Source: a virus
Lineage: Duplodnaviria > Heunggongvirae > Uroviricota > Caudoviricetes
Virus record (IMG/VR): IMGVR_UViG_2617270962_000004
Coordinates: 1-9,573 of that record
Length of the DNA stretch: 9,573 nt
Reading direction: 5' to 3' (one strand)
The position numbers were made by a program, and so were the translations under genes. Shown one piece after another: positions 1 to 9,573 of the stretch; positions within the stretch are counted from its first letter, which is position 1; every line of letters starts with the position of its first letter. A model generated the notes under the pieces. That model saw only the letters and a list, made by a program, of their open reading frames with translations. It was not told the origin of the DNA and did no database searches.

Positions 1-13
1 GTAATTTCATCAT
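1..13 (-). CDS. 5' end of the next early-operon gene (partial, continues beyond window start)
   Basis: On the minus strand GGGGG lies about 7 nt upstream of an ATG at 13..11 (reads ATG ATG AAA TTA ...), directly after the TGA stop (19..17) of the upstream ORF. Only 4 codons are visible. Confidence 0.25.
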
Positions 14-16
14 GCA

Positions 17-532
17 TCACCCCCTGACTCGCTTTTCAGCAGCATAAAACTCATCAGACAGTATTTCGGTCATTTTCTGTTTTGCGGGTTTTACGCCGCA
101 CTGAAGGTAAATCACATCGTCAACGCAGAACCACTTCACAGGGCCAAACAGGATTGCCGAGAAATCAATACCCAGCCAGAACAACAGCGCATCGGTTCTG
201 GCATACGTGACGGGCGAATATTCACGCCACAGACTGTTCAGTTCATCAGAGGCAACACGCAGGGTTTTAGGGATACGTGATGTGCGCGGTGTGCAGCTCC
301 AGCCATTCGACGCAGTCGGTTTTCGCCATAAGTCGCGATGAAAAGGATATTTGTCCTCCGTAAAACGCAGTCCCTTAAAGCAAAATCCACTGATACCGGA
401 TACAAATACCGACCGGCACGCAACATTCAGCACGGCCTCAAGGCGTTTTGCCTCATCCTTAACTTTCTGGCAGTCCTGCTGGTATTTTTGCCACGCAGCC
501 AGCGCGGAAGGGTTTGATGTTTTAAAGAACAT
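17..532 (-). CDS. hypothetical prophage early-region protein (171 aa)
   Basis: Intact ORF in the same orientation as the early operon. Its ATG (532..530) overlaps the TAA stop of the upstream gene by one base (TAATG), suggesting translational coupling. I recognise no family from the sequence. Confidence 0.6.
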   Translation of the reverse strand: MFFKTSNPSALAAWQKYQQDCQKVKDEAKRLEAVLNVACRSVFVSGISGFCFKGLRFTEDKYPFHRDLWRKPTASNGWSCTPRTSRIPKTLRVASDELNSLWREYSPVTYARTDALLFWLGIDFSAILFGPVKWFCVDDVIYLQCGVKPAKQKMTEILSDEFYAAEKRVRG

Positions 533-1065
533 TACGCCACCTCCGCAGATATCCCGGCAGGCGCTGCTGTCCGGTCAACAATCAGGTAGCGCAGAACATG
601 TTCAGTGATATTCCAGCCGCTTAAACCGCAGATAATGACGCCCAGGCGTATGTCGATATACGCCATCACAAACTGGGGCACGCCTTCTTTCATGGCCTGC
701 TCATCAACTTCAGCCACCACATAAACGGTTTCACAGGTCAGAACGCCCTGAGCAAATTCCCACGCCATCGACGGAATATCATGCCCCTCAATCCATGGCA
801 GGGATTTTCTGAAGCTGCACCACTGAACATCATCAGCCGCAGATTCCTGGCTGCATTTGCGACGAACCGGCTGCACCGGGCGGGGGCGCGGAATATCATA
901 AAAACCGTTACATTCCGTCAGCACGCCTGCATCAACCGCATCACGCAGAAAATAAACCATGGAGGATGGCGGCATATTCATTTTTTCAGCCAGTACACCG
1001 CAGGTCAGGCGGCCATAAATACGCAGCCAGTTTTTAACCCCTTCAAGCACTTTTGCATCAATCAT
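532..1065 (-). CDS. hypothetical prophage early-region protein (177 aa), N-terminal region possibly winged-helix-like
   Basis: ORF with ATG at 1065..1063 preceded by GGGG (rc of 1075-1078). Co-oriented with the early operon; the stop overlaps the next start. The fold suggestion is an impression only. Confidence 0.6.
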   Translation of the reverse strand: MIDAKVLEGVKNWLRIYGRLTCGVLAEKMNMPPSSMVYFLRDAVDAGVLTECNGFYDIPRPRPVQPVRRKCSQESAADDVQWCSFRKSLPWIEGHDIPSMAWEFAQGVLTCETVYVVAEVDEQAMKEGVPQFVMAYIDIRLGVIICGLSGWNITEHVLRYLIVDRTAAPAGISAEVA

Positions 1066-1210
1066 GATTTATTTCCCCACCACATTATTAATGACGATAT
1101 AAACGTATTTCATATTTCTTAACCCTTATTTTCTGTTTTCAGGCGCAAGCAGTCCCCTGACGCGAGCGCCATAATTAAAATGAAGTGATATTTAATTGAT
1201 TAATGCGGTG

Positions 1211-1741
1211 TTATTTATTCAGTCCGGCGTCCTGTTCAAAAGGCTCGACATAAAAACTTTCAGCGCCTTTATTCACCTTGATACCGGCAATGCCTTTCAC
1301 AGCATCCGGCTCCGCCAGGACGGCTTCCTTGTTCACTTCCTCTTTCGTGCGGATGAAACGCTCAAGCCCCATACGGCGCAGCATTTCAATCACACCTTCC
1401 ACATCACGGCTGACGCTGCATGATGGCGTTCCCAGCCGCCATGACACCGTTCCGGTGGTCAGATTGGCTGTTTTGGTTTTGCCGCCGTTCGTCAGCTCAT
1501 CACGGTTGGTTTTGCACCAGTCCTGAATCCCTTTAAAAAGCACTTTGATTTGCTTTTTAAGATTTTCAATCTGCGGCGTATAACGGGCGGTGATTTCTGC
1601 CACTTCGTCATTCATCGCCGTTTCCAGGCGTAGCGCCTCTCGCTGAATATCTCCCAGGGTGCGGATATCACGGCTGACTTCTTCCCGGGTCTGCGGTGCC
1701 GCCTCGGCTGCGGCCTTTAATTTTGTAACGCGTTTAGCCAT
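1211..1741 (-). CDS. gam: Gam-like host-nuclease inhibitor (Mu Gam / Ku-like DNA-end-binding protein)
   Basis: 176-aa translation contains ...NRDELTNGGKTKTANLTTGTVSWRLGTPSCSVS...LGLERFIRTKEEVNKEAVLAEPDAVKGIAGIKV...PFEQDAGL, which matches my recollection of phage Mu Gam (about 174 aa) along its whole length. RBS AAGGA is 8-9 nt upstream of the ATG at 1741. Confidence 0.85.
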   Translation of the reverse strand: MAKRVTKLKAAAEAAPQTREEVSRDIRTLGDIQREALRLETAMNDEVAEITARYTPQIENLKKQIKVLFKGIQDWCKTNRDELTNGGKTKTANLTTGTVSWRLGTPSCSVSRDVEGVIEMLRRMGLERFIRTKEEVNKEAVLAEPDAVKGIAGIKVNKGAESFYVEPFEQDAGLNK

Positions 1742-1752
1742 TTTGTTTTTCC

Positions 1753-2046
1753 TTATTGCAGTGTGCCTGATGCTTTATGCACGCGGTGGCGTTTAATGAT
1801 GGCATCCGCTCCAAAAGACTGTGCAGATGCCTGAAATTCCGCTGAGAGAAACTGAATAATTGCAGGACTGTGATACTGGAGAATACTTGCATAAACGTCA
1901 CAGAGTGACGTCGGCCTGTTATCCGTATCACGTTCTGTTTTCACATCCACTCCAATCTTTTCATGCACTTCAACACAGTCATTGCCTGCCAACTTTTCGT
2001 CATGCGAAACATGATTAAATTCAAAAATAACGCGTACTTTGCTCAT
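1753..2046 (-). CDS. small hypothetical protein (97 aa), member of a duplicated family in the early region
   Basis: The ORF track extends it to 2073, but the internal ATG at 2046..2044 has a good RBS (AGGGG 7 nt upstream) and gives an N-terminus MSKVRVIFEFNH that parallels MSKVVRIIFEYKEH of the adjacent gene. The 3' end lies 12 nt from the gam start. Confidence 0.5.
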   Translation of the reverse strand: MSKVRVIFEFNHVSHDEKLAGNDCVEVHEKIGVDVKTERDTDNRPTSLCDVYASILQYHSPAIIQFLSAEFQASAQSFGADAIIKRHRVHKASGTLQ

Positions 2047-2050
2047 GGAA

Positions 2051-2323
2051 TTACCCCTGTTGATTAAATTCATTACCGTTAATAACCCCGGAAGTCATGC
2101 CTCTGTCTTTCATGAATGCACTGGCTTTCATTGCCACAAACTCTGCGAAGTTTCTGCTTTCTGCCAGCATAACCACCCCAAAAATCATGGCGGGTCCATT
2201 ATCTTTCTTCTTTATTCCGGTTGAACGTATGTCCAGACTTACCCCCATGCGCACTGTTCCATCAGCGTTTTTATGGATAACGTGCTCCTTATATTCGAAA
2301 ATAATGCGTACGACTTTACTCAT
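2051..2323 (-). CDS. small hypothetical protein (90 aa), paralogue of the 1753..2046 product
   Basis: ATG at 2323..2321 overlaps the TGA stop of the upstream gene (ATGA). RBS GAGG/ACGAGGA lies upstream. The N-terminus MSKVVRIIFEYKEH is shared with the neighbouring gene at both protein and nucleotide level. Confidence 0.55.
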   Translation of the reverse strand: MSKVVRIIFEYKEHVIHKNADGTVRMGVSLDIRSTGIKKKDNGPAMIFGVVMLAESRNFAEFVAMKASAFMKDRGMTSGVINGNEFNQQG

Positions 2324-2601
2324 CCTCTGGTCCTCGTTCTGTTTGGATAACTGACCCGGCGTCTAACCTCACGGCAGAACCGAATCATGGCATTAAAGGC
2401 TTCTTCCTCCGTCACCGCTTCCGGTATCCCCGGAACCAGTAACTGCTCCTGTTCATCACGTCCATGACGCGCCATAACCTCAATCACATGCCGTACCGTG
2501 GCAGGCTTTCCGGCAACTATCGGCAATGCACCTTCCGGCAGGACGTAACCAAACTCAATAAGACCACTCGACCACGCCCATGCAATGAGATTTTTTTTCA
2601 C
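2320..2601 (-). CDS. hypothetical prophage early-region protein (93 aa)
   Basis: ORF with GTG start at 2601..2599 preceded by a strong RBS GGGAGGTG. Translationally coupled to the downstream gene through an ATGA overlap. No recognisable motif. Confidence 0.5.
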   Translation of the reverse strand: MKKNLIAWAWSSGLIEFGYVLPEGALPIVAGKPATVRHVIEVMARHGRDEQEQLLVPGIPEAVTEEEAFNAMIRFCREVRRRVSYPNRTRTRG

Positions 2602-2602
2602 C

Positions 2603-2857
2603 TCACACCTCCCAGTAAACCGTGCAGCCGCTGATGCGGGTGGCCTTCACACGGCGGCGCAGGCCGTTGGTCTGTATGGTGATTTCAATTTCACCGGTTC
2701 CCTGCACGTTGCCTACCGGCGGCGTGGTTTTCAGTGCAAAACGTTGCGGATAGCGCTTACTGCGTTCCAGTACCGCACCGGCAAGTTCGGTCAGACGGCG
2801 CGCGCTGTTCAGGGAGTCGAATAAATTCATTTTGTTACCGCAGGATTGCATATTCAT
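2603..2857 (-). CDS. hypothetical prophage early-region protein (84 aa)
   Basis: ATG at 2857..2855 with RBS GAGGTG 5-6 nt upstream. The stop lies 1 nt before the next gene's start codon. No recognisable motif. Confidence 0.5.
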   Translation of the reverse strand: MNMQSCGNKMNLFDSLNSARRLTELAGAVLERSKRYPQRFALKTTPPVGNVQGTGEIEITIQTNGLRRRVKATRISGCTVYWEV

Positions 2858-2869
2858 ATAACACCTCGT

Positions 2870-3091
2870 TTAGCTGATTCGTTTTGCACCGATAAAACGA
2901 CAAATATTGCTGTAAGCTTCTTTCGCACCTTCACGATCAAGTCCGGCAGATATCACCATTCTGGTGCGATCATTAAATTCAAAAAGTAAATCGCCACATT
3001 CTTTATTTTCGGACACGGAGACTGCTTTGACGTTATCGAAATTCACCAGGTGAAAGCGTCCGTAAATATCAGGAATATTAAATGCAATCAT
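2870..3091 (-). CDS. small protein directly downstream of B (73 aa from ATG 3091; 75 aa if GTG 3097), in the position of Mu kil; function unproven
   Basis: ORF overlapping the end of the MuB-like gene. The ATG at 3091..3089 has RBS AGGTG 7 nt upstream. It contains an internal LLFEFNDRT segment resembling the N-termini of the two MSKV proteins. The Kil assignment rests on gene order only. Confidence 0.45.
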   Translation of the reverse strand: MIAFNIPDIYGRFHLVNFDNVKAVSVSENKECGDLLFEFNDRTRMVISAGLDREGAKEAYSNICRFIGAKRIS

Positions 3092-3093
3092 AA

Positions 3094-4026
3094 TCACACC
3101 TGTGAGAGTAATTCAGGGTTGGTATAAACCTCTTTAAAGGCCGCATTAATATGTTTTTCTGTCAGCGCCGCGCCTTCACCACTGGCGGTGATCCATGCCT
3201 GGTTAAGCGTATGTGTCAGAACGCGTAACGCTCCCGGCTTTTCAGCGATAGCCTGCATGACGGCCAGCTCGGCCTCACCACTGATCCCCCACGCCATGGC
3301 AATGGCCAGCACATCCGCCTTTTTGGCCTTGCGAAGTTGTTTTGTACGGGCAAGACGGCTGAACAGGCGCGATAAATCATCAAAGGCGCGGCGTCCACCT
3401 TTAAACAATCCGCGCGGGTTACCAATAAGCACCATCCCGATCCCCGTGGCGTCCTGGATTGCCCGGAGTTGCTCCAGACCGTCAATACCAAGATGATCCG
3501 CCTCATCCACAATCACCAGTCCACGCGTTCCCATCAGGCGACGGCGGATGGCGCGGGATAATGCCCCTTTGTTCGCGCGGGTGTAATCAATCCCCAGCGC
3601 ATCGGCCAGCTCCAGCAGACACTCCGTGACGCTGGAGTGCGCGGGTGACAGGGTGATCATCCAGGTGTTTGGTTGCTCCTGGCAGTAATTACGGGCAGTG
3701 GCCGTTTTACCCACACCCGGTACGCCCACAATAACGTTAATACAGCCCATCAGGCGAACCGCCTGAAACAGTGCGCGCAGCTCCTGGACTGTCTGAGTTT
3801 CCACAAACTGCGGCGGTTCCGGCAGTGCGCTTTGTTTATTCCAGTTCTCATACCAGGAGCGCAGGGAAGCAGCCACAGCAGCGTTATCGCCTTTATATTT
3901 TCCCTTACGGAAAGCCGATAATGTGCCGTCGGAAATCCCCGCCTCTCTGGCGATGGCATACTGCGTCAGTACGCCGCCATCAATAAGTTCATCAATGGTC
4001 TTGATTACATCGTTAATATCGGTCAT
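3094..4026 (-). CDS. B: MuB-like ATP-dependent target DNA activator (AAA+ ATPase)
   Basis: Translation contains a Walker A motif (VGVPGVGKTATARNY) and a Walker B-like motif (LVIVDEADHL). It aligns along its length with my recollection of phage Mu B (for example LPEPPQFVETQTV, KPGALRVL). Size 310-313 aa versus 312 for MuB. I prefer the ATG at 4026 (RBS GAGGTG 8 nt upstream) over the GTG at 4035 used by the ORF track. Confidence 0.9.
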   Translation of the reverse strand: MTDINDVIKTIDELIDGGVLTQYAIAREAGISDGTLSAFRKGKYKGDNAAVAASLRSWYENWNKQSALPEPPQFVETQTVQELRALFQAVRLMGCINVIVGVPGVGKTATARNYCQEQPNTWMITLSPAHSSVTECLLELADALGIDYTRANKGALSRAIRRRLMGTRGLVIVDEADHLGIDGLEQLRAIQDATGIGMVLIGNPRGLFKGGRRAFDDLSRLFSRLARTKQLRKAKKADVLAIAMAWGISGEAELAVMQAIAEKPGALRVLTHTLNQAWITASGEGAALTEKHINAAFKEVYTNPELLSQV

Positions 4027-4108
4027 ATTATTCACCTCGCTTGAGACAGCATTCTCCGAGACTGAAACCTCAAATAACCTGAGTCACCCCTCGGGTTATT
4101 TTTTTATT

Positions 4109-6199
4109 TCAGGCCAGCGGATCACTTTCTTTTAATTTCGCTTCGAGCAGTTGCAATCCCCGCTGGAAATTACGCTCGTATTCTTCATCAGGTTCATCGT
4201 CAGCGACAGGTTGCTGAACGGTCACCGTATTACCCACAGGGCGGTAGATGTTTTCCAGCCAGGGCTCCTGCGGCTTGTGCTCCAGCACGTTGACAACCTC
4301 ATCCTCGGCATCACGGATTTTTTCCTCTGCGCGTTTACGCATACCTTTAAGGCGCTGCTGCTGTTTGTAGTATTCCGCGCTGACAGGGAAGGCTTCGCGT
4401 TTATTGCCGTCCCATACCGCCTCGCAAATCACGCTGCCATCCGGGCGGCGCACGGTAATTCGTTCGGCATCATGAATGTCATAGCTGATAAGTACCTTAC
4501 GGCCATGCTCGTCACGCAGCTCGGGCGCGTAGTAAATATTATTCAGCCAGCGTATTTCACAGCGTCTTACAGGGCGCTCCACCATCGGCCGGAACATATC
4601 CCGCAGTTCAACATCGGACAGCCATTCAATTTCCGTGTCCTCTTCCGCCAGGCGTTTTTTTCTGAACTCCGCCGGGCTGTAATGTTTACCGTTCGGCTTC
4701 ATGGGTAATTCATCGTGCGGCCGGTTGTTGTACCACTCAACACCGTCACGAATGGCATCAATCAGTTCAGACCAGGACGGTAAATCACGCATCGCTGACT
4801 GCTGCCGGGCGTTCAGCCGTTTGCCCTGTTGCAGGGCACTGAATGCCGAGCGTAAATCGCGGTTGGTTTTACGTAACGTCTCGCGATCTGCTCCTTTCCC
4901 GAAATAGGTGCGGTATTTACGGGCTATGCGCATCGGTAATGTGCGGTTAAGCCGTTCGATAATGCCCCGTCCCTGCGGATTACCGGCAATCCCTGTCGGG
5001 TGATTAATCCCCAGTCGTGGCAGTATCCCCACAATCTCCTTATCCAGGACGTCGGCGGTTTCCCCGGAGCCATTATCCGAGTAATACAGAAACGGTTTGC
5101 CATGATGGCGAATACCGTGCTGTATGGCACCGGCTACGGCGAAAACATTTTCAGCCAGGTCAAGGCTCCAGCCCACCACAAAGCGCGTGCCACCGTCGAT
5201 AACAAAGGTCACTTCCGGTGCGAATGGCCGCCCGTGAACCGGGTGCGCGCATTTCAGCTTCATGCCGTGACCGTCACCAATCCAGACATAATTCACCGGC
5301 ATTTTTGACCAGTCGCGGCGCGTGAATCCCTCAAGCTGGCGGTATTCACTGCCAGTTACCCGGCCTTTTTGTTTCACCACTTCCGGCAGTTTCTTCATTG
5401 CGCGGCGAATGGTGTCATAAGAGGGCATGATATCGAGCATATAAGGCTCATCAGCGTGCCGGTGCTGCCATTCAGCAACAAAATCCTCGTAAGCCTCGGT
5501 CATTGGTCGGCCGTTTGACTGGCGATACTGCGCCAGAAATTCGGGCAGCCAGTTAATATCTTCGGCTTTTATTTCCTGGCGTTTACCCGGTGCCAGTAAA
5601 AGCAGGCGTTCAGCGGCGTTCTGTGCCTTGTTAAAGGCCGCAATCCAGCGTTTCAGCGTGATTTCACTCAACGCACGGCTGTTTCCCTTTTTGGCGTTCG
5701 CCGTCTCAACCATTGCCACAATGCGCTCGTCCAGTTGCGAACGTGCCAGGTTGTCAACGATAAACCGGATAGCCTTCGCACAGCTGAAACCAGGTTGTTG
5801 CGCGACTTTCAGAACTTCGCTGACGATCGCGATTCGTGCATCAGCCACCTGGCGCTGGTTTTCAGTCAGGGCATTGAGGCGTTCGAGCATCAGTTGTGGT
5901 GATCCGCGATATGCCTCCACCGCATCAACCACGGCAGATGAGCGTCTGGCCTTTGTCACCACCGGAGCCGGTGATTCATCAGCTTTTTGCGTCATCAGTT
6001 GAAGGGCATAACGTTCACGCAATACTTGTTGCGCGCCAGAAGGCAAACAATCGATATTAAATTCGATTGCTTTTGTCCCCTTACGTTTGCGTAACATGGC
6101 TGCATTTCCCGCAGCTGCTTTTGTGAGTCGATGGCGAATGTTATGTTCCATCATTGGTAAATCAGGAAGACCAACACATTCTTTTGCTGTTACCCACAT
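4109..6199 (-). CDS. A: MuA-like DDE transposase (transposable-phage transposase A)
   Basis: 696-aa ORF. The N-terminus MWVTAKECVGLPDLP...GTKAIEFNIDCLP resembles the MuA N-terminal DNA-binding domain (Mu: MELWVSPKECANLPGLP...GKAIEY). Size (Mu A is 663 aa) and position between ner-like and B-like genes fit. RBS GGGGGA lies 4-5 nt upstream of the ATG. Confidence 0.92.
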   Translation of the reverse strand: MWVTAKECVGLPDLPMMEHNIRHRLTKAAAGNAAMLRKRKGTKAIEFNIDCLPSGAQQVLRERYALQLMTQKADESPAPVVTKARRSSAVVDAVEAYRGSPQLMLERLNALTENQRQVADARIAIVSEVLKVAQQPGFSCAKAIRFIVDNLARSQLDERIVAMVETANAKKGNSRALSEITLKRWIAAFNKAQNAAERLLLLAPGKRQEIKAEDINWLPEFLAQYRQSNGRPMTEAYEDFVAEWQHRHADEPYMLDIMPSYDTIRRAMKKLPEVVKQKGRVTGSEYRQLEGFTRRDWSKMPVNYVWIGDGHGMKLKCAHPVHGRPFAPEVTFVIDGGTRFVVGWSLDLAENVFAVAGAIQHGIRHHGKPFLYYSDNGSGETADVLDKEIVGILPRLGINHPTGIAGNPQGRGIIERLNRTLPMRIARKYRTYFGKGADRETLRKTNRDLRSAFSALQQGKRLNARQQSAMRDLPSWSELIDAIRDGVEWYNNRPHDELPMKPNGKHYSPAEFRKKRLAEEDTEIEWLSDVELRDMFRPMVERPVRRCEIRWLNNIYYAPELRDEHGRKVLISYDIHDAERITVRRPDGSVICEAVWDGNKREAFPVSAEYYKQQQRLKGMRKRAEEKIRDAEDEVVNVLEHKPQEPWLENIYRPVGNTVTVQQPVADDEPDEEYERNFQRGLQLLEAKLKESDPLA

Positions 6200-6209
6200 A
6201 CATCCCCCA

Positions 6210-6476
6210 TCAAGCCACTTCTCTGGCGTCCACCTGGTATCTGCTGGGCCAGATTACAGCAGGTTCAACCCCTATTTTTTCGGCGATGGCGGCTTCGTAT
6301 TTACGGCACTGGCGGTAAAACACATTGCGCATTGATCCGCTTTTTAATCCTAACTCCCTTTCCAGTTCAGGGAGGTCTGTGCCTTTGTTTTCAAGGGCTG
6401 CATATACCGCTTTAGCAGACCAGTCACACCCCTCTCGAACAAACAAATTATTCGATGCTTGTCTGGATACCCTCAT
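6210..6476 (-). CDS. ner: Ner-like DNA-binding regulator (Ner/Nlp family)
   Basis: The C-terminal motif PAVIWPSRYQ matches the conserved end of Mu Ner and E. coli Nlp (PEVIWPSRY). It is the first gene of the early operon, directly upstream of the transposase. Confidence 0.8.
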   Translation of the reverse strand: MRVSRQASNNLFVREGCDWSAKAVYAALENKGTDLPELERELGLKSGSMRNVFYRQCRKYEAAIAEKIGVEPAVIWPSRYQVDAREVA

Positions 6477-6632
6477 TGTGTGATCCTCTCATGTTTACCT
6501 GAACCGATAATCAAAACCGGTTATCGATTTAGGTAAATCATAATCGCAAAATAATTCGATATCAACGGTTTTTTGCGAGCATATCGAAATTAAATGCGAT
6601 GTCGATAATTTCTTTGTTTTATAGGGGGTTAT
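6477..6632. promoter_or_regulatory. divergent promoter/operator region between the ner-like gene and the repressor gene
   Basis: 156-bp AT-rich intergenic region between divergently transcribed genes. It holds at least five copies of the hexamer TCGATA / TATCGA in alternating orientation (about 6505, 6522, 6556, 6582, 6602) and the palindrome AACCGGTT (6515-6522). Exact -35/-10 elements could not be assigned confidently by eye. Confidence 0.6.
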
Positions 6633-7244
6633 ATGGATAAGGCAGAAAAAACCGTATCCAGTGCGGAACGGTTTATTGATATGGAAGGAATAAACCGATT
6701 TTCAGAACGCTTAGCTATGGCTATGGGAAACATGACAAACGTCGAACTGGCGACCCTTTGTGGACTATCTGAAGCCACAGTAAGAAATTACAGGAAGGGG
6801 AAAAACTTCCCTCCTTTGGATAAACTGGCCTTAATAGCTAAAGCCTGTAATTGTTCACTCGACTGGTTGGCCACAGGCAAGAACGAAGATGAATGCGGAA
6901 AAATCGGAAAAAATTGCGATTCAGGTTCGGGTATTGATCAGGCGCTTAGCTCTCTAAGCCCCCAAGAGAAGCAATTAATCCTTACATTCATCAGGCGAGA
7001 AGGTACTAACAACCTTGTCAGGCTGGCAGCAATGAATACATCTACAATCAGCCAGGATGCGGTAGAAAGCATCATTGATGCCTTGCCATTACGTCCCGTA
7101 CTAAAAAATGCAATAAAGATAGGAATGGCGGGAAGTGAAGAAACAGACAAAGAGATTTTGCGCGTTATTGAGAAGTACAACTCGAGCAATAACGCCACCC
7201 AGGAATCAGGGGCAGTGACAGTAAAGAAAAATGTTGTTGGTTAA
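6633..7244 (+). CDS. prophage repressor, HTH XRE (Cro/C1)-type, 203 aa, functional analogue of Mu c
   Basis: Strong RBS AGGGGG 5 nt upstream of the ATG. Residues about 36-80 (NVELATLCGLSEATVRNYRKGKNFPPLDKLALIAKACNCSLDWLATG) form a typical XRE-family helix-turn-helix. It is transcribed divergently from ner/A/B towards the prophage end, as c is in Mu. I see no LexA-like S24 peptidase motif. Confidence 0.75.
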   Translation: MDKAEKTVSSAERFIDMEGINRFSERLAMAMGNMTNVELATLCGLSEATVRNYRKGKNFPPLDKLALIAKACNCSLDWLATGKNEDECGKIGKNCDSGSGIDQALSSLSPQEKQLILTFIRREGTNNLVRLAAMNTSTISQDAVESIIDALPLRPVLKNAIKIGMAGSEETDKEILRVIEKYNSSNNATQESGAVTVKKNVVG

Positions 7245-7416
7245 GCGCCATCGCTATCATGAGGTGGTGCTGTAAATACATATAGAGATCATATGACTCA
7301 TCCCAAGATAATCACGCTATTGAATAGTAATTCATGATGATTATCATACTGATTATAGTTAGATCGATTATGTGAGCATTTTGGCAGTTTGAAGATGTTT
7401 TGAAGAAGATTTTAAG

Positions 7417-7600
7417 GGTAAATTAGCAGTATCAAATGTGCCGCCGTTTTTTGATCTTTTGACTATTTGTTGAGCAGTCGGTATCAAAAAGAGTTTTCCG
7501 TCCGAAGTATACATCACCTGTTTTATTTCAGCATCTTACAGGTGATTTCACCTCCTTTCACTAAAACCCTTGTCGGTATCAAATGATTCACCTGGTTACA
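7417..7600. repeat. prophage terminus (attL-like) with three direct repeats of a putative transposase end-binding motif
   Basis: Direct repeats AGTATCAAATG (7428-7438), GGTATCAAAAA (7480-7490) and GGTATCAAATG (7575-7585). The element ends ...GGTTACA at 7600, so the other strand reads 5'-TGTAACC..., the 5'-TG terminus typical of Mu-like elements. The exact end is uncertain by a few bp. Confidence 0.55.
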
Positions 7601-8930
7601 CCCATGCGTCTTGATCGACAGAAGTTTTATAATGTGCATCGTTATAATCTACGATGCTGTCCGCGCTGTACGCTTTGCTGGCCTGGAAACCATCCGCAAC
7701 AATGACGCCGCCGTTATCAATTTCACAGGTAGTCGGGTTACCGTACTGACTCAATTCCGCAGCGGTAGCTGTACGCTCGAGACGCCATGGGTTATTGGAG
7801 TTTTCAGCGCTGGTACCCCGTGGGCAATCTTTAGACCCAACCCACCAGGCGTTCTTGTAAACATTACCATTGAAAATAACATGGTAAATTTCGCTACCTT
7901 CCTGGCCGCTCCACGCTTGCAATGAGTAATCGTTAACGCTATCCGCTGGTGTTGATGGCTCGCTGTTATCCGGAGTTGGGGTCACCGGTGTTTCCGGAGT
8001 TGGATCAACCGGAGTCACAGCACCGCCATTATTATCCGGCTTAACGGAACAGGAGCCAGGGTTACCATACTGGCTGATTTCTGTTGCCGTTGCCGCGCGA
8101 ACATAACGCCATGGGTTACTGGCATCGTTTTCTTTCGCATCGCCTGGGCAATTTGCCGCGCCTACCCACCAGGCGTTCTTATAAATGCCGCCGTTATAGA
8201 TAACGTACCATGTAGAAGAACCTTCCTGACCTTTCCAGGCTACTACAGCATAGTTGTCGTTTGACTTATCAGCTGGGGCTGGCTGAACATCAGGAGCCGG
8301 TTTAACGTCCGGTGCCGGTTTCACATCCGGTGAAGGCTGTGGTGCTGAAGTACAGGACTGTGGATTACTGGTTTCTGAGATTTCCGTTGCCGTAGCGGCA
8401 CGAACATAACGCCATGGGTTGCTGGCATCATTGCTTTTCGCATCACCCGGACAGTTAGAAGAGGCTACCCACCAGGCATTTTTATATACCGCACCATTAA
8501 AGACGACATACCAGGTCTGACCGCCCTGCTGTTTATTCCAGGCAACTACAGAAGAATTAGACGGAACAGTGCCCTGTGCTGGTGTAGCCGAACCGCCATT
8601 AGCCGGCGTATTGGATGCAGGCGTATTTGAATTTGAAGAAGATGAGCTGCCGCTCTTTTCGCAGGAAAGTGTATTGCCAAACTGACTAATTTCAGCAGCT
8701 GTTGCGGTACGCTTTAAACGCCACGGGTTAGTTGCATCATTTGCTTTCGCTTTTCCCGGGCAATTTGTAGAAGAAACCCACCAGGCATTTTCATAAATTT
8801 TGCCATCGAAAATAACCTGATATTTATTACCACCTTGTTGGTTATTCCATGCTTCCATTGCCAATGCTGGCAGAGCGGAACACACCAGCCCCATACCAAT
8901 CATAGATTTAGTAAATATATTTAATTTCAT
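7596..8930 (-). CDS. chiA: periplasmic endochitinase ChiA, 5' fragment (signal peptide plus four chitin-binding modules, 444 codons), truncated by the prophage insertion
   Basis: N-terminus MKLNIFTKSMIGMGLVCSALPALA is a signal peptide. Four about 65-aa modules repeat with the pattern AW...Y.V.FNG..Y.NAWWV...CPG...NPWR...TA.EIS, separated by S/T/P-rich linkers. RBS AAGGGA precedes the ATG. The last codon (GTG) and the TAA stop are supplied by the prophage end. E. coli ChiA is about 897 aa as I recall, so the catalytic domain is missing here. Confidence 0.85.
   Translation of the reverse strand: MKLNIFTKSMIGMGLVCSALPALAMEAWNNQQGGNKYQVIFDGKIYENAWWVSSTNCPGKAKANDATNPWRLKRTATAAEISQFGNTLSCEKSGSSSSSNSNTPASNTPANGGSATPAQGTVPSNSSVVAWNKQQGGQTWYVVFNGAVYKNAWWVASSNCPGDAKSNDASNPWRYVRAATATEISETSNPQSCTSAPQPSPDVKPAPDVKPAPDVQPAPADKSNDNYAVVAWKGQEGSSTWYVIYNGGIYKNAWWVGAANCPGDAKENDASNPWRYVRAATATEISQYGNPGSCSVKPDNNGGAVTPVDPTPETPVTPTPDNSEPSTPADSVNDYSLQAWSGQEGSEIYHVIFNGNVYKNAWWVGSKDCPRGTSAENSNNPWRLERTATAAELSQYGNPTTCEIDNGGVIVADGFQASKAYSADSIVDYNDAHYKTSVDQDAWV
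8277..8330 (-). repeat. in-frame 18-bp tandem repeat (3 units) encoding the linker PDVKPA PDVKPA PDVQPA within chiA
   Basis: Minus-strand units CCGGATGTGAAACCGGCA / CCGGACGTTAAACCGGCT / CCTGATGTTCAGCCAGCC, read directly from the sequence. Confidence 0.5.
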
Positions 8931-9170
8931 TATAATCCCTTGTGACGTAAAAACTGCAAAACAAAAGTCCTACGCAGGAATTATTTACGTTTTACGAGAA
9001 CCCTTCAATATGAATTAAAGTGCGGCATTAAAAATAAGAAAAAAGCCTGACAAATGAAGAATTTTAAAAACAGAAACATTCATATTTAAAATGTTAAATT
9101 GAATTGATATTTTAAATATGAATAATTTATTCGTTCTGACAGTACGAATAAGATATGCCGTCAACAAATG
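8931..9170 (-). promoter_or_regulatory. AT-rich chiA upstream region (promoter region, elements not individually assigned)
   Basis: 240-bp strongly AT-rich stretch between the tufA terminator and the chiA start. Contains a perfect 8-bp inverted repeat TTATTCGT-N9-ACGAATAA (9127-9151). Confidence 0.35.
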
Positions 9171-9197
9171 CAAAAAGGGCGCCGAAGCGCCCTTTTC
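9171..9197 (-). terminator. Rho-independent terminator of tufA (structurally bidirectional)
   Basis: CAAAAA-GGGCGC-CGAA-GCGCCC-TTTTC: a perfect 6-bp GC stem with a 4-nt loop. On the minus strand the stem is followed by TTTTTG, 25 nt after the tufA stop; the A-run on one side and T-run on the other allow termination in either direction. Confidence 0.8.
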
Positions 9198-9221
9198 AAT
9201 TCAAAACTAATTAACGTGTAA

Positions 9222-9573
<352 letters not shown>

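What the first reader, a model, noticed from the sequence alone, without database searches (positions are those of the whole stretch)
7417..8930. Mu-like prophage inserted into chiA, with the junction about 1.6 kb downstream of tufA
The chiA reading frame runs uninterrupted for 443 host-encoded codons and ends exactly where the prophage terminal sequence begins (+ strand ...GGTTACA at 7594-7600; on the coding strand 5'-TGTAACC). The final Val codon and the TAA stop come from the phage end. Everything at lower coordinates is Mu-type early-region content. This looks like an insertional disruption by a transposable phage rather than a native short chiA allele. Mu-type insertion is near-random, so it would be strain-specific.
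Basis: partly seen in the sequence, partly recalled or inferred. Interest (0 to 1): 0.75.

Follow-up and report, generated by a model that had tools for sequence, protein, structure and literature searches.

The report
Mu-like prophage splits chiA gene
A known type of transposing (Mu-like, Sp18-type) prophage has landed in the middle of the E. coli chitinase gene chiA in one small group of isolates, cutting off the enzyme's catalytic half. This is a real but ordinary, strain-private insertion.

Summary
The window is the whole contig JNMI01000074.1 of E. coli 3-373-03_S1_C2. Bases 7601-9573 are K-12-type tufA-chiA DNA, with 3 differences in 1973 nt, all intergenic. Homology to K-12 stops exactly at 7600|7601. 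That is also where about 300 related prophage copies in other E. coli genomes end. chiA is cut after codon 443 of 897. The ORF finishes with G(host)+TG and TAA from the phage terminus TGTAA. The 444-aa product lacks the CBM5/12 and GH18 domains.

Bases 1-7600 are the left end and early region of an Sp18-type Mu-like phage: repressor, ner, A, B, kil, gam, gp11, gp12. It is 98% identical to a prophage in flgK of strain JE86-ST02.

None of 5,426 complete E. coli genomes has this junction, and 3,156 have the uninterrupted site. Two sister assemblies and one read-set assembly share the junction. A separately annotated 431-aa ChiA C-terminal fragment exists in the same strain, so the 3' half is present.

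One correction: this phage family makes 4-bp, not 5-bp, target duplications (6 of 6 copies, with one empty site confirmed). The expected duplication is therefore CCCA. I could not retrieve the distal junction itself.

This is an ordinary new instance of a known phenomenon, and interest is low.

The parts
9222..9573 (-). 3' end of tufA (elongation factor Tu), cut by the contig end
   Evidence: Matches K-12 tuf in locus L001. Pfam GTP_EFTU_D3 hits the called product.
8931..9221 (-). Native tufA-chiA spacer, holding the tufA terminator hairpin (about 9172-9195) and the chiA upstream region. It carries the only three differences from K-12 (9020, 9022, 9060).
7601..8930 (-). Host-derived 5' part of chiA: codons 1-443 plus the first base of codon 444. 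It encodes the signal peptide and four ~60-aa N-terminal repeats (residues 27, 130, 231, 339 onward).
   Evidence: 100% amino-acid and nucleotide identity to K-12 chiA over this stretch. Repeats listed.
7596..7600 (-). Phage terminal bases 5'-TGTAA on the coding strand. They complete the Val444 codon and supply the TAA stop of the truncated ORF.
7601..7604 (.). Predicted copy of the 4-bp target-site duplication (CCCA). The second copy is expected at the distal phage end, outside this contig.
   Evidence: Inferred from 6 of 6 related prophages with 4-bp duplications and one empty site confirmed at 100%. Not observed in this strain.
7245..7600 (-). Phage left end (attL), terminus 5'-TGTAACCAGGTG..., with three TTTGATACYG repeats (7574-7583, 7479-7488, 7427-7436) that are probably transposase-binding sites
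   Evidence: 3 copies against 0.06 expected. The same motif recurs at the right ends of relatives. The terminus is conserved in about 300 copies.
6633..7244 (+). Phage repressor (c-type), transcribed divergently from the early operon
   Evidence: Pfam Phage_CI_repr 1.6e-9 and HTH_3. The identical protein is seen on 631 contigs.
6210..6476 (-). Ner-like early regulator
   Evidence: Pfam HTH_35 1.7e-20. 37.5% identity to Mu Ner.
4109..6199 (-). Transposase A (696 aa)
   Evidence: Pfam Mu-transpos_C 2.2e-17 and HTH_Tnp_Mu_1 3.1e-5. 22.6% identity to MuA. GenBank KDT75260.1.
3094..4035 (-). MuB-type AAA+ transposition/target-capture protein
   Evidence: Pfam Phage-MuB_C 1.4e-24 and AAA_22. 48% identity to MuB.
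2603..2857 (-). Kil-like small early protein
   Evidence: Precomputed Pfam PF26843 Kil_protein on the called product. My own scan at 1e-3 gave no hit.
1211..1741 (-). Gam host-nuclease inhibitor
   Evidence: Pfam Phage_Mu_Gam 5.5e-42. 57% identity to Mu Gam.
17..1065 (-). Homologues of Mu gp11 (532-1065) and gp12 (17-532). The contig ends 16 nt beyond gp12.
   Evidence: Pfam Gp11_C 5.8e-41. Phage_Mu_Gp12 precomputed.

Best explanation
An Sp18-type Mu-like transposable phage integrated by DDE transposition into chiA in a recent ancestor of the 3-373-03_S1 isolates.

Shown:
- The phage left terminus (5'-TGTAACC...) is joined to chiA after nucleotide 1330 (codon 443 plus 1 nt).
- Everything from 7600 down to 1 is the phage left end and early operon.
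- The same phage family sits at many different loci in other strains.
- This particular junction is private to one small clone.

Inferred mechanism:
- Transposase A binds the TTTGATACYG repeats at both phage ends.
- With the MuB-type ATPase holding target DNA, it joins the phage 3' ends to chiA with a 4-bp stagger at CCCA.
- Gap repair then duplicates CCCA, so the distal junction should read ...GGGACAAAGCCCCA|TATAGCGCGGCG... followed (on the window + strand, at lower coordinates) by the chiA 3' half, bfd and bfr.

Consequence:
- The chiA ORF runs 2 nt into the phage end and stops at the TAA inside TGTAA.
- The 444-aa product keeps the signal peptide and four N-terminal repeats. It lacks the CBM5/12 module (residues 461-494) and the GH18 catalytic domain (609-805), so chitinase/lysozyme activity is lost.
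- The 3' half survives as an orphan ORF starting at codon 467.
- The intact c-type repressor presumably keeps the prophage quiescent.
For: - Junction: exact at 7600|7601 by pairwise alignment, and by two independent BLAST sets.
- Host side: 443/443 residues and all 1330 nt are identical to K-12 chiA.
- Phage side: Mu early-gene set by Pfam. 98.2% identity over all 7600 nt to the JE86-ST02 prophage in flgK. 94.8% identity to a region that GenBank annotates as 'inserted Bacteriophage Mu-like phage'.
- Transposition behaviour of the family: 303 places in 248 of 5,426 genomes, up to 4 per genome. Six independent full copies at six loci each carry a 4-bp direct repeat. The rebuilt empty melA site is 100% identical to intact melA.
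- Literature: Sp18-type phages have strain-specific sites, are packaged and do not circularise (PMC2669165, PMC7430833, PMC10132054).
- Privacy of the insertion: 0 of 5,426 genomes span the junction, and 3,156 have the intact site.
- Reproducibility: the identical junction appears in GCA_000700265, GCA_000700625, GCA_000700645 and a Logan assembly of SRR1186646.
- 3' half present: a 431-aa ChiA fragment is annotated in 3-373-03_S1_C1 and _C2. The window's transposase is KDT75260.1 from 3-373-03_S1_C2. The fragment starts at codon 467, which is the first in-frame start codon available after the predicted junction.
- Domains lost: CBM_5_12 at 461-494 and GH18 at 609-805 in full-length ChiA. The truncated product has no Pfam hit.
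Against: - The distal phage end and the second copy of the duplication were not seen. The contig stops 7.6 kb into the phage, and the contig carrying the 3' chiA fragment could not be fetched.
- Whether the prophage is complete in this strain is therefore unknown. One relative is a 19.4-kb deleted derivative (L009), and another has lost its right end with adjacent host DNA (L006).
- 431-aa ChiA fragments also arise in other strains from unrelated lesions: the K-12-identical version is on 125 contigs. The fragment's presence is therefore consistent with the predicted distal junction but does not prove it.
- No expression or phenotype data exist.
Confidence: 0.88

Rival explanations
1. The phage inserted into chiA, but a secondary rearrangement followed (adjacent deletion or inversion, or loss of the right end). 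In that case the distal end is not a clean 4-bp-duplicated junction with the rest of chiA, or the element is now a defective remnant.
For: Among seven related prophages examined, one has lost mom/attR and the adjoining part of ycjO (L006), and one is a 19.4-kb internal-deletion derivative (L009). Only 7.6 kb of the element is visible here.
Against: The chiA 3' half from at least codon 467 is retained in the same strain, and it starts at the first start codon that a simple insertion would leave. Five of seven relatives are simple full-length insertions.
Confidence: 0.12
2. The junction is an assembly chimera that joins a phage end and chiA from different places in the genome.
For: The source is a fragmented short-read draft. 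The contig ends in repeats (tufA/tufB) and inside the phage.
Against: The join falls exactly at the biological terminus of the phage, to the base. It recurs identically in three separately assembled genomes and in an independent Logan assembly that spans it by 32 nt. A separate 3' chiA gene fragment is called in the same strain.
Confidence: 0.02
3. This is a native short chiA allele that ends at this position by point mutation or ancient divergence.
For: chiA fragments and pseudogenes are common in E. coli assemblies.
Against: Sequence downstream of 7600 has no similarity to chiA and is phage DNA. No complete genome has such an allele. The host side is 100% identical to K-12 up to the break.
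Confidence: 0.01

Closest known systems
Sp18 of E. coli O157:H7 Sakai and its relatives (e.g. Phi804-3, 'Mu_JNE082796' in LC727881, the JE86-ST02 prophage in flgK)
   Same: Same phage family. Identity is 94-98% over the 7.6-kb early region, with the identical left terminus. The transposase falls in the same 90% cluster as the O157 protein A0A0H3JJZ5. The gene order is the same, and the family shows strain-specific insertion sites (PMC7430833, PMC10132054).
   Different: The insertion site (chiA codon 443/444) was not found in any complete genome. The exact transposase sequence is seen only on this contig. The rest of the phage is not visible here.
Bacteriophage Mu (AF083977)
   Same: Same early-region order: c / ner / A / B / kil / gam / gp11 / gp12. 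B is 48% identical, Gam 57% and Ner 37.5%. The left end starts with TG. Both ends carry multiple short repeats. The right end of relatives aligns in register with the Mu R end (TATAGCGC against TGAAGCGG).
   Different: The transposase is only 22.6% identical to MuA. The end sequences are unrelated beyond the first bases. Relatives make 4-bp rather than 5-bp duplications and end in TA-3' rather than CA-3' on the right. No megablast similarity to Mu was found.
E. coli K-12 chiA (yheB), bifunctional chitinase/lysozyme WP_000773156.1
   Same: Same locus (tufA-chiA). Codons 1-443 are identical.
   Different: Truncated at residue 443 of 897. The CBM5/12 and GH18 domains are missing from the ORF in the window.
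Yersinia phages vB_YpM_5 / vB_YpM_6 (MT374853, MT374854)
   Same: These are the only isolated phages in the collection with nucleotide similarity: 81% over window 4213-5670, inside the transposase gene.
   Different: Similarity is limited to 19% of the phage part of the window. They have a different host.

Membership tests
Mu-like transposable phages | DDE transposase with Mu-type domains | tested here: met
   Pfam Mu-transpos_C 2.2e-17 and HTH_Tnp_Mu_1 3.1e-5 on window 4109-6199. BLASTP to MuA gives 22.6% identity, E 8e-13.
Mu-like transposable phages | MuB-type AAA+ target-capture protein next to the transposase | tested here: met
   Pfam Phage-MuB_C 1.4e-24. 48% identity to MuB. The gene lies immediately downstream of A.
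Mu-like transposable phages | Early-region synteny: a divergent repressor, then ner-A-B-kil...gam-gp11-gp12 starting a few hundred bp from the left end | tested here: met
   Compared with the Mu annotation.
Mu-like transposable phages | Insertion at many unrelated sites (no att-specific integration) | tested here: met
   303 places in 248 genomes. Six full copies lie at six different loci. Literature: PMC10132054, PMC7430833.
Mu-like transposable phages | Short target-site duplication flanking the element | not testable with these tools
   The distal end of this copy is outside the contig and could not be retrieved. In relatives the duplication is present, with 6 of 6 copies at 4 bp.
Phage Mu sensu stricto (Muvirus mu type) | 5-bp target duplication and TG...CA termini | tested here: not met
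   Tested on six close relatives, not on this copy. The duplication is 4 bp and the termini are 5'-TG...TA-3'. The empty site was confirmed under the 4-bp model. PMC8705779 gives 5 bp (Mu) or 6 bp (B3) and TG-CA as the norm.
Sp18-type prophages of E. coli | Near-identical nucleotide sequence and termini | tested here: met
   94-98% identity over 7600 nt to prophages of O157:H7 and other E. coli, all ending at window 7600. PMC10132054 states that the LC727881-type Mu-like phages resemble Sp18.
E. coli ChiA (GH18 chitinase/lysozyme) | GH18 catalytic domain with the DxDxE motif | tested here: not met
   Full-length K-12 ChiA has GH18 at 609-805, with DFDIE at 696-700. The 444-aa ORF in the window ends before it. 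The gene is chiA by locus and identity, but the product is not a chitinase.

The most novel reading that the evidence does not exclude
The Sp18-type phages may be a distinct lineage of Mu-type transposable phages. Their highly diverged transposase (22.6% identity to MuA) staggers target cuts by 4 bp and uses a TA-3' right terminus. This departs from the 5/6-bp, TG-CA rule stated for all Mu- and B3-like phages, and it may not have been described beyond a GenBank feature note. The sequence evidence for 4 bp and TG...TA is strong: 6 of 6 independent insertions plus one confirmed empty site. What is uncertain is whether this is already documented, and whether it reflects a real difference in transpososome geometry.
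Probability: 0.3. Interest if true: 0.4.

Novelty: new member of a known kind. Interest (0 to 1): 0.15.

Why it matters
- For the strain, this is a null allele of chiA. ChiA is a secreted chitinase/lysozyme, and from my own knowledge (not tested here) it has been implicated in adhesion of some pathogenic E. coli to host chitinase-like proteins.
- The junction is a clean clonal marker for the 3-373-03_S1 isolates.
- More generally, it is one more example of Sp18-type Mu-like phages acting as insertional mutagens in natural E. coli, which is already documented.
- The only point of wider interest is the side observation that this family makes 4-bp duplications and has a non-CA right end. This matters for anyone delimiting such prophages automatically or using the 5-bp rule as a diagnostic.

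Tried and rejected
- I predicted ten small ORFs that would span the distal junction under the 4-bp and 5-bp models and looked them up exactly. None is in the collection. This is uninformative, because such ORFs need not have been called.
- I scanned species-representative genomes for the predicted distal junction and for the phage left end. Both gave no match, as expected because only one E. coli genome is in that set.
- An exact look-up of the 444-aa truncated ChiA in the cluster table said 'not in the collection', although look-up of encoding contigs found it on four contigs. I treated this as an index difference.
- I first read LC727881 as compatible with a 5-bp duplication (GATGA) and TG...CA ends. 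Five further copies showed that the two bases before TATAGC vary, and that only a 4-bp repeat fits all of them, so I rejected that reading.
- Literature searches for the assembly accessions found only an unrelated pipolin paper. A search for 4-bp duplications in Mu-like phages found nothing specific to Sp18.
- I did not run the search for homologous proteins. It returns only cluster representatives, and the fragment needed is a non-representative member.

Full report
**What is in the window**

The 9,573-nt window is the complete contig JNMI01000074.1 of assembly GCA_000700265.1. Its transposase is GenBank KDT75260.1 from Escherichia coli 3-373-03_S1_C2.

On the minus strand, from high to low coordinates, it carries:
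- the 3' end of tufA (9573-9222);
- a 291-nt spacer;
- an ORF of 444 codons (8930-7596);
- 7.6 kb of phage genes.

**Checking the observation**

The 444-aa ORF matches K-12 ChiA (897 aa) at 443 of 443 residues. The 1,330 host nucleotides are identical to K-12. The only three differences in 7601-9573 lie in the tufA-chiA spacer, at 9020, 9022 and 9060.

The pairwise alignment breaks between 7600 and 7601. The window reads ...CACCTGGTTACA|CCCATGCG and K-12 reads ...GGGACAAAGC|CCCATGCG.

A 501-nt probe across the junction found no complete E. coli genome covering both halves (0 of 5,426). Phage-side matches stop at window 7600 (a few run 1-5 nt further by chance). chiA-side matches start at 7601. 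All long matches to 1-7600 also end at 7598-7600.

The last sense codon GTG takes its G from the host (7601) and only TG from the phage. The TAA (7598-7596) is phage. The stop arises because the phage terminus reads 5'-TGTAA on the chiA coding strand.

**What the inserted DNA is**

Pfam identifies the following genes:
- a CI-type repressor (6633-7244, + strand);
- a Ner-like HTH_35 protein (6210-6476);
- a 696-aa transposase with Mu-transpos_C and Mu HTH domains (4109-6199);
- a MuB-type ATPase (3094-4035);
- Kil (2603-2857, precomputed hit only);
- Gam (1211-1741);
- gp11 and gp12 homologues (532-1065 and 17-532).

This is the Mu early-region order (compare).

The 184 nt next to the terminus hold three copies of TTTGATACYG, against 0.06 expected by chance. 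The same motif recurs at the right ends of relatives, so these are probably transposase-binding sites. That role is inferred.

At the nucleotide level the region is 98.2% identical over its full length to a 38.4-kb prophage inserted in flgK of strain JE86-ST02. It is 96-97% identical to prophages of many O157:H7 and O111 strains. It is 94.8% identical to segments that GenBank records LC727881 and LC727895 annotate as 'inserted Bacteriophage Mu-like phage' inside Stx phages.

The paper behind those records says these phages resemble Sp18 of O157 Sakai and vary in location, as expected for transposition (PMC10132054). Sp18 is reported to be packaged, not to circularise, and not to be mitomycin-inducible (PMC2669165). 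Strain-specific sites for such prophages are also documented, for example sorM in Sakai and prpD-prpE in FRIK804 (PMC7430833).

Compared with Mu itself, B is 48% identical, Gam 57% and Ner 37.5%, but the transposase is only 22.6% identical.

**Is it a transpositional insertion, and is it private?**

Related sequence occurs at 303 places in 248 of 5,426 complete genomes, with up to four copies per genome.

I fetched seven copies. They lie in ycjO, an Stx2c phage, flgK, bglJ, melA, yghD/gspM and a P2-like head gene.

The 300-nt stretch of chiA spanning the insertion point is continuous in 3,156 genomes and interrupted in none by this phage.

The identical junction is present in two sister assemblies (GCA_000700625, GCA_000700645) and in a Logan assembly of SRR1186646 that crosses it by 32 nt. 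This rules out a one-off assembly artefact. It also fits one clone sampled several times, as the names _C1 and _C2 suggest.

**The target duplication**

Six relatives have both ends present. In all six, the constant phage sequence is TATAGCGCGG...CCTGGTTACA (in window orientation), flanked by exactly 4 repeated bases: GATG, TGAT, GTAC, AACG, CCCG and GGTG. No 5-bp reading fits.

I rebuilt the empty melA site under the 4-bp model. It matches intact melA at 296 of 296 nt in a single ungapped piece.

GenBank LC727881 also annotates a 4-bp duplication.

For this copy the expected duplication is therefore CCCA (7601-7604). The distal junction should read ...GGGACAAAGCCCCA|TATAGCGCGGCG....

In phage orientation the termini are 5'-TG...TA-3'. 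The right end aligns in register with Mu's R end (TATAGCGC against TGAAGCGG). A review-type statement in PMC8705779 gives 5 bp (Mu) or 6 bp (B3) and TG-CA ends as the rule. This family therefore departs from the Mu paradigm, in line with its divergent transposase. This is a side finding about the family, not about this window.

**The other half of chiA**

I could not read the distal junction. Exact look-ups show that a 431-aa C-terminal ChiA fragment is annotated in E. coli 3-373-03_S1_C1 and _C2, on contigs up to 42,263 bp (P0005: KDT77615.1, KDU44239.1). It carries a private W703R change three residues after the DxDxE glutamate.

The fragment starts at codon 467. In the predicted junction sequence, that is the first in-frame ATG/GTG/TTG after the phage end. 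So the 3' half is present in the same genome and is called as a separate gene, as a simple insertion predicts.

This evidence is supportive but not decisive. K-12-identical 431-aa fragments occur on 125 other contigs for unrelated reasons. Of the seven relatives examined, one has lost its right end with adjacent host DNA and one is a 19.4-kb deletion derivative.

Attempts to reach the junction failed:
- exact look-up of ten predicted junction-spanning ORFs found none in the collection;
- scans of the species-representative genomes found no match.

**Consequence for the gene**

Full-length ChiA has a CBM5/12 module at 461-494 and the GH18 domain at 609-805. The truncated product keeps the signal peptide and four ~60-aa N-terminal repeats but has neither of those domains, so enzymatic activity should be lost. 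That loss is inferred. Whether the N-terminal fragment is made and secreted is untested.

**Verdict**

- The interpretation, a strain-private insertional disruption of chiA by a transposable Mu-like phage, is supported.
- The target duplication should be corrected to 4 bp.
- The phage should be called Sp18-type.

This is a new instance of a well-documented phenomenon. Interest is low (0.15). The most novel reading left open concerns the family's non-canonical 4-bp / TG...TA transposition signature.

Noticed in passing
L007 2674-2677/42646-42649; L008 about 4362/42775; L009-L012 (junctions listed): Sp18-type Mu-like prophages carry 4-bp (not 5-bp) target duplications and termini 5'-TGTAACC...GCGCTATA-3' (TG...TA rather than TG...CA). 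This holds at six of six independent insertions. The empty melA site was confirmed at 100% under the 4-bp model.
   Followed up: yes
window 4109-6199 compared with L013 (Mu) 1328-3319: The transposase is only 22.6% identical to MuA, while the adjacent B (48%) and Gam (57%) are much closer. The early region therefore diverges unevenly from Mu.
   Followed up: partly
L006 (O157:H7 NE 1092-2) about 38887-39140: This related prophage in ycjO has no recognisable right end or mom gene. com is followed directly by ycjN, and the 5' part of ycjO is missing. This looks like a secondary deletion next to the phage.
   Followed up: partly
L009 (strain DLI.5a, bglJ): This copy is only 19,373 bp between intact ends with a 4-bp duplication. 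It is an internal-deletion derivative lacking most head and tail genes.
   Followed up: no
P0005 (431-aa ChiA fragment of 3-373-03_S1_C1/_C2), residue 703 in full-length numbering: The orphaned 3' chiA half carries a private W703R change three residues after the catalytic-motif glutamate (DFDIE 696-700). This may be drift after inactivation, but it is a single change only.
   Followed up: partly
chiA generally: C-terminal ChiA fragments are common as called genes: 431 aa on 125 contigs, 403 aa on 90 and 353 aa on 109. The chiA site is present in only 3,160 of 5,426 complete genomes. chiA is therefore often split or absent in E. coli.
   Followed up: no
L008 24660-24739; L006 18862-18941; L010 25550-25629: RefSeq annotates an 80-nt 'tRNA-OTHER' on the strand opposite the head-morphogenesis genes in these prophages. 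Its nature was not examined.
   Followed up: no
window 1-16 and 9573; L003, L004 ends (window 5176 and 5374): The contig ends inside tufA, which has a near-identical paralogue tufB, and 16 nt past the gp12 homologue. The sister assemblies break at two different points inside the transposase gene. This suggests fragmented low-coverage assembly rather than a repeat boundary.
   Followed up: partly
window 9172-9195: A GC-rich hairpin (GGGCGC CGAA GCGCCC) is flanked by A/T runs just downstream of the tufA stop. It is the native tufA terminator and is identical to K-12.
   Followed up: no
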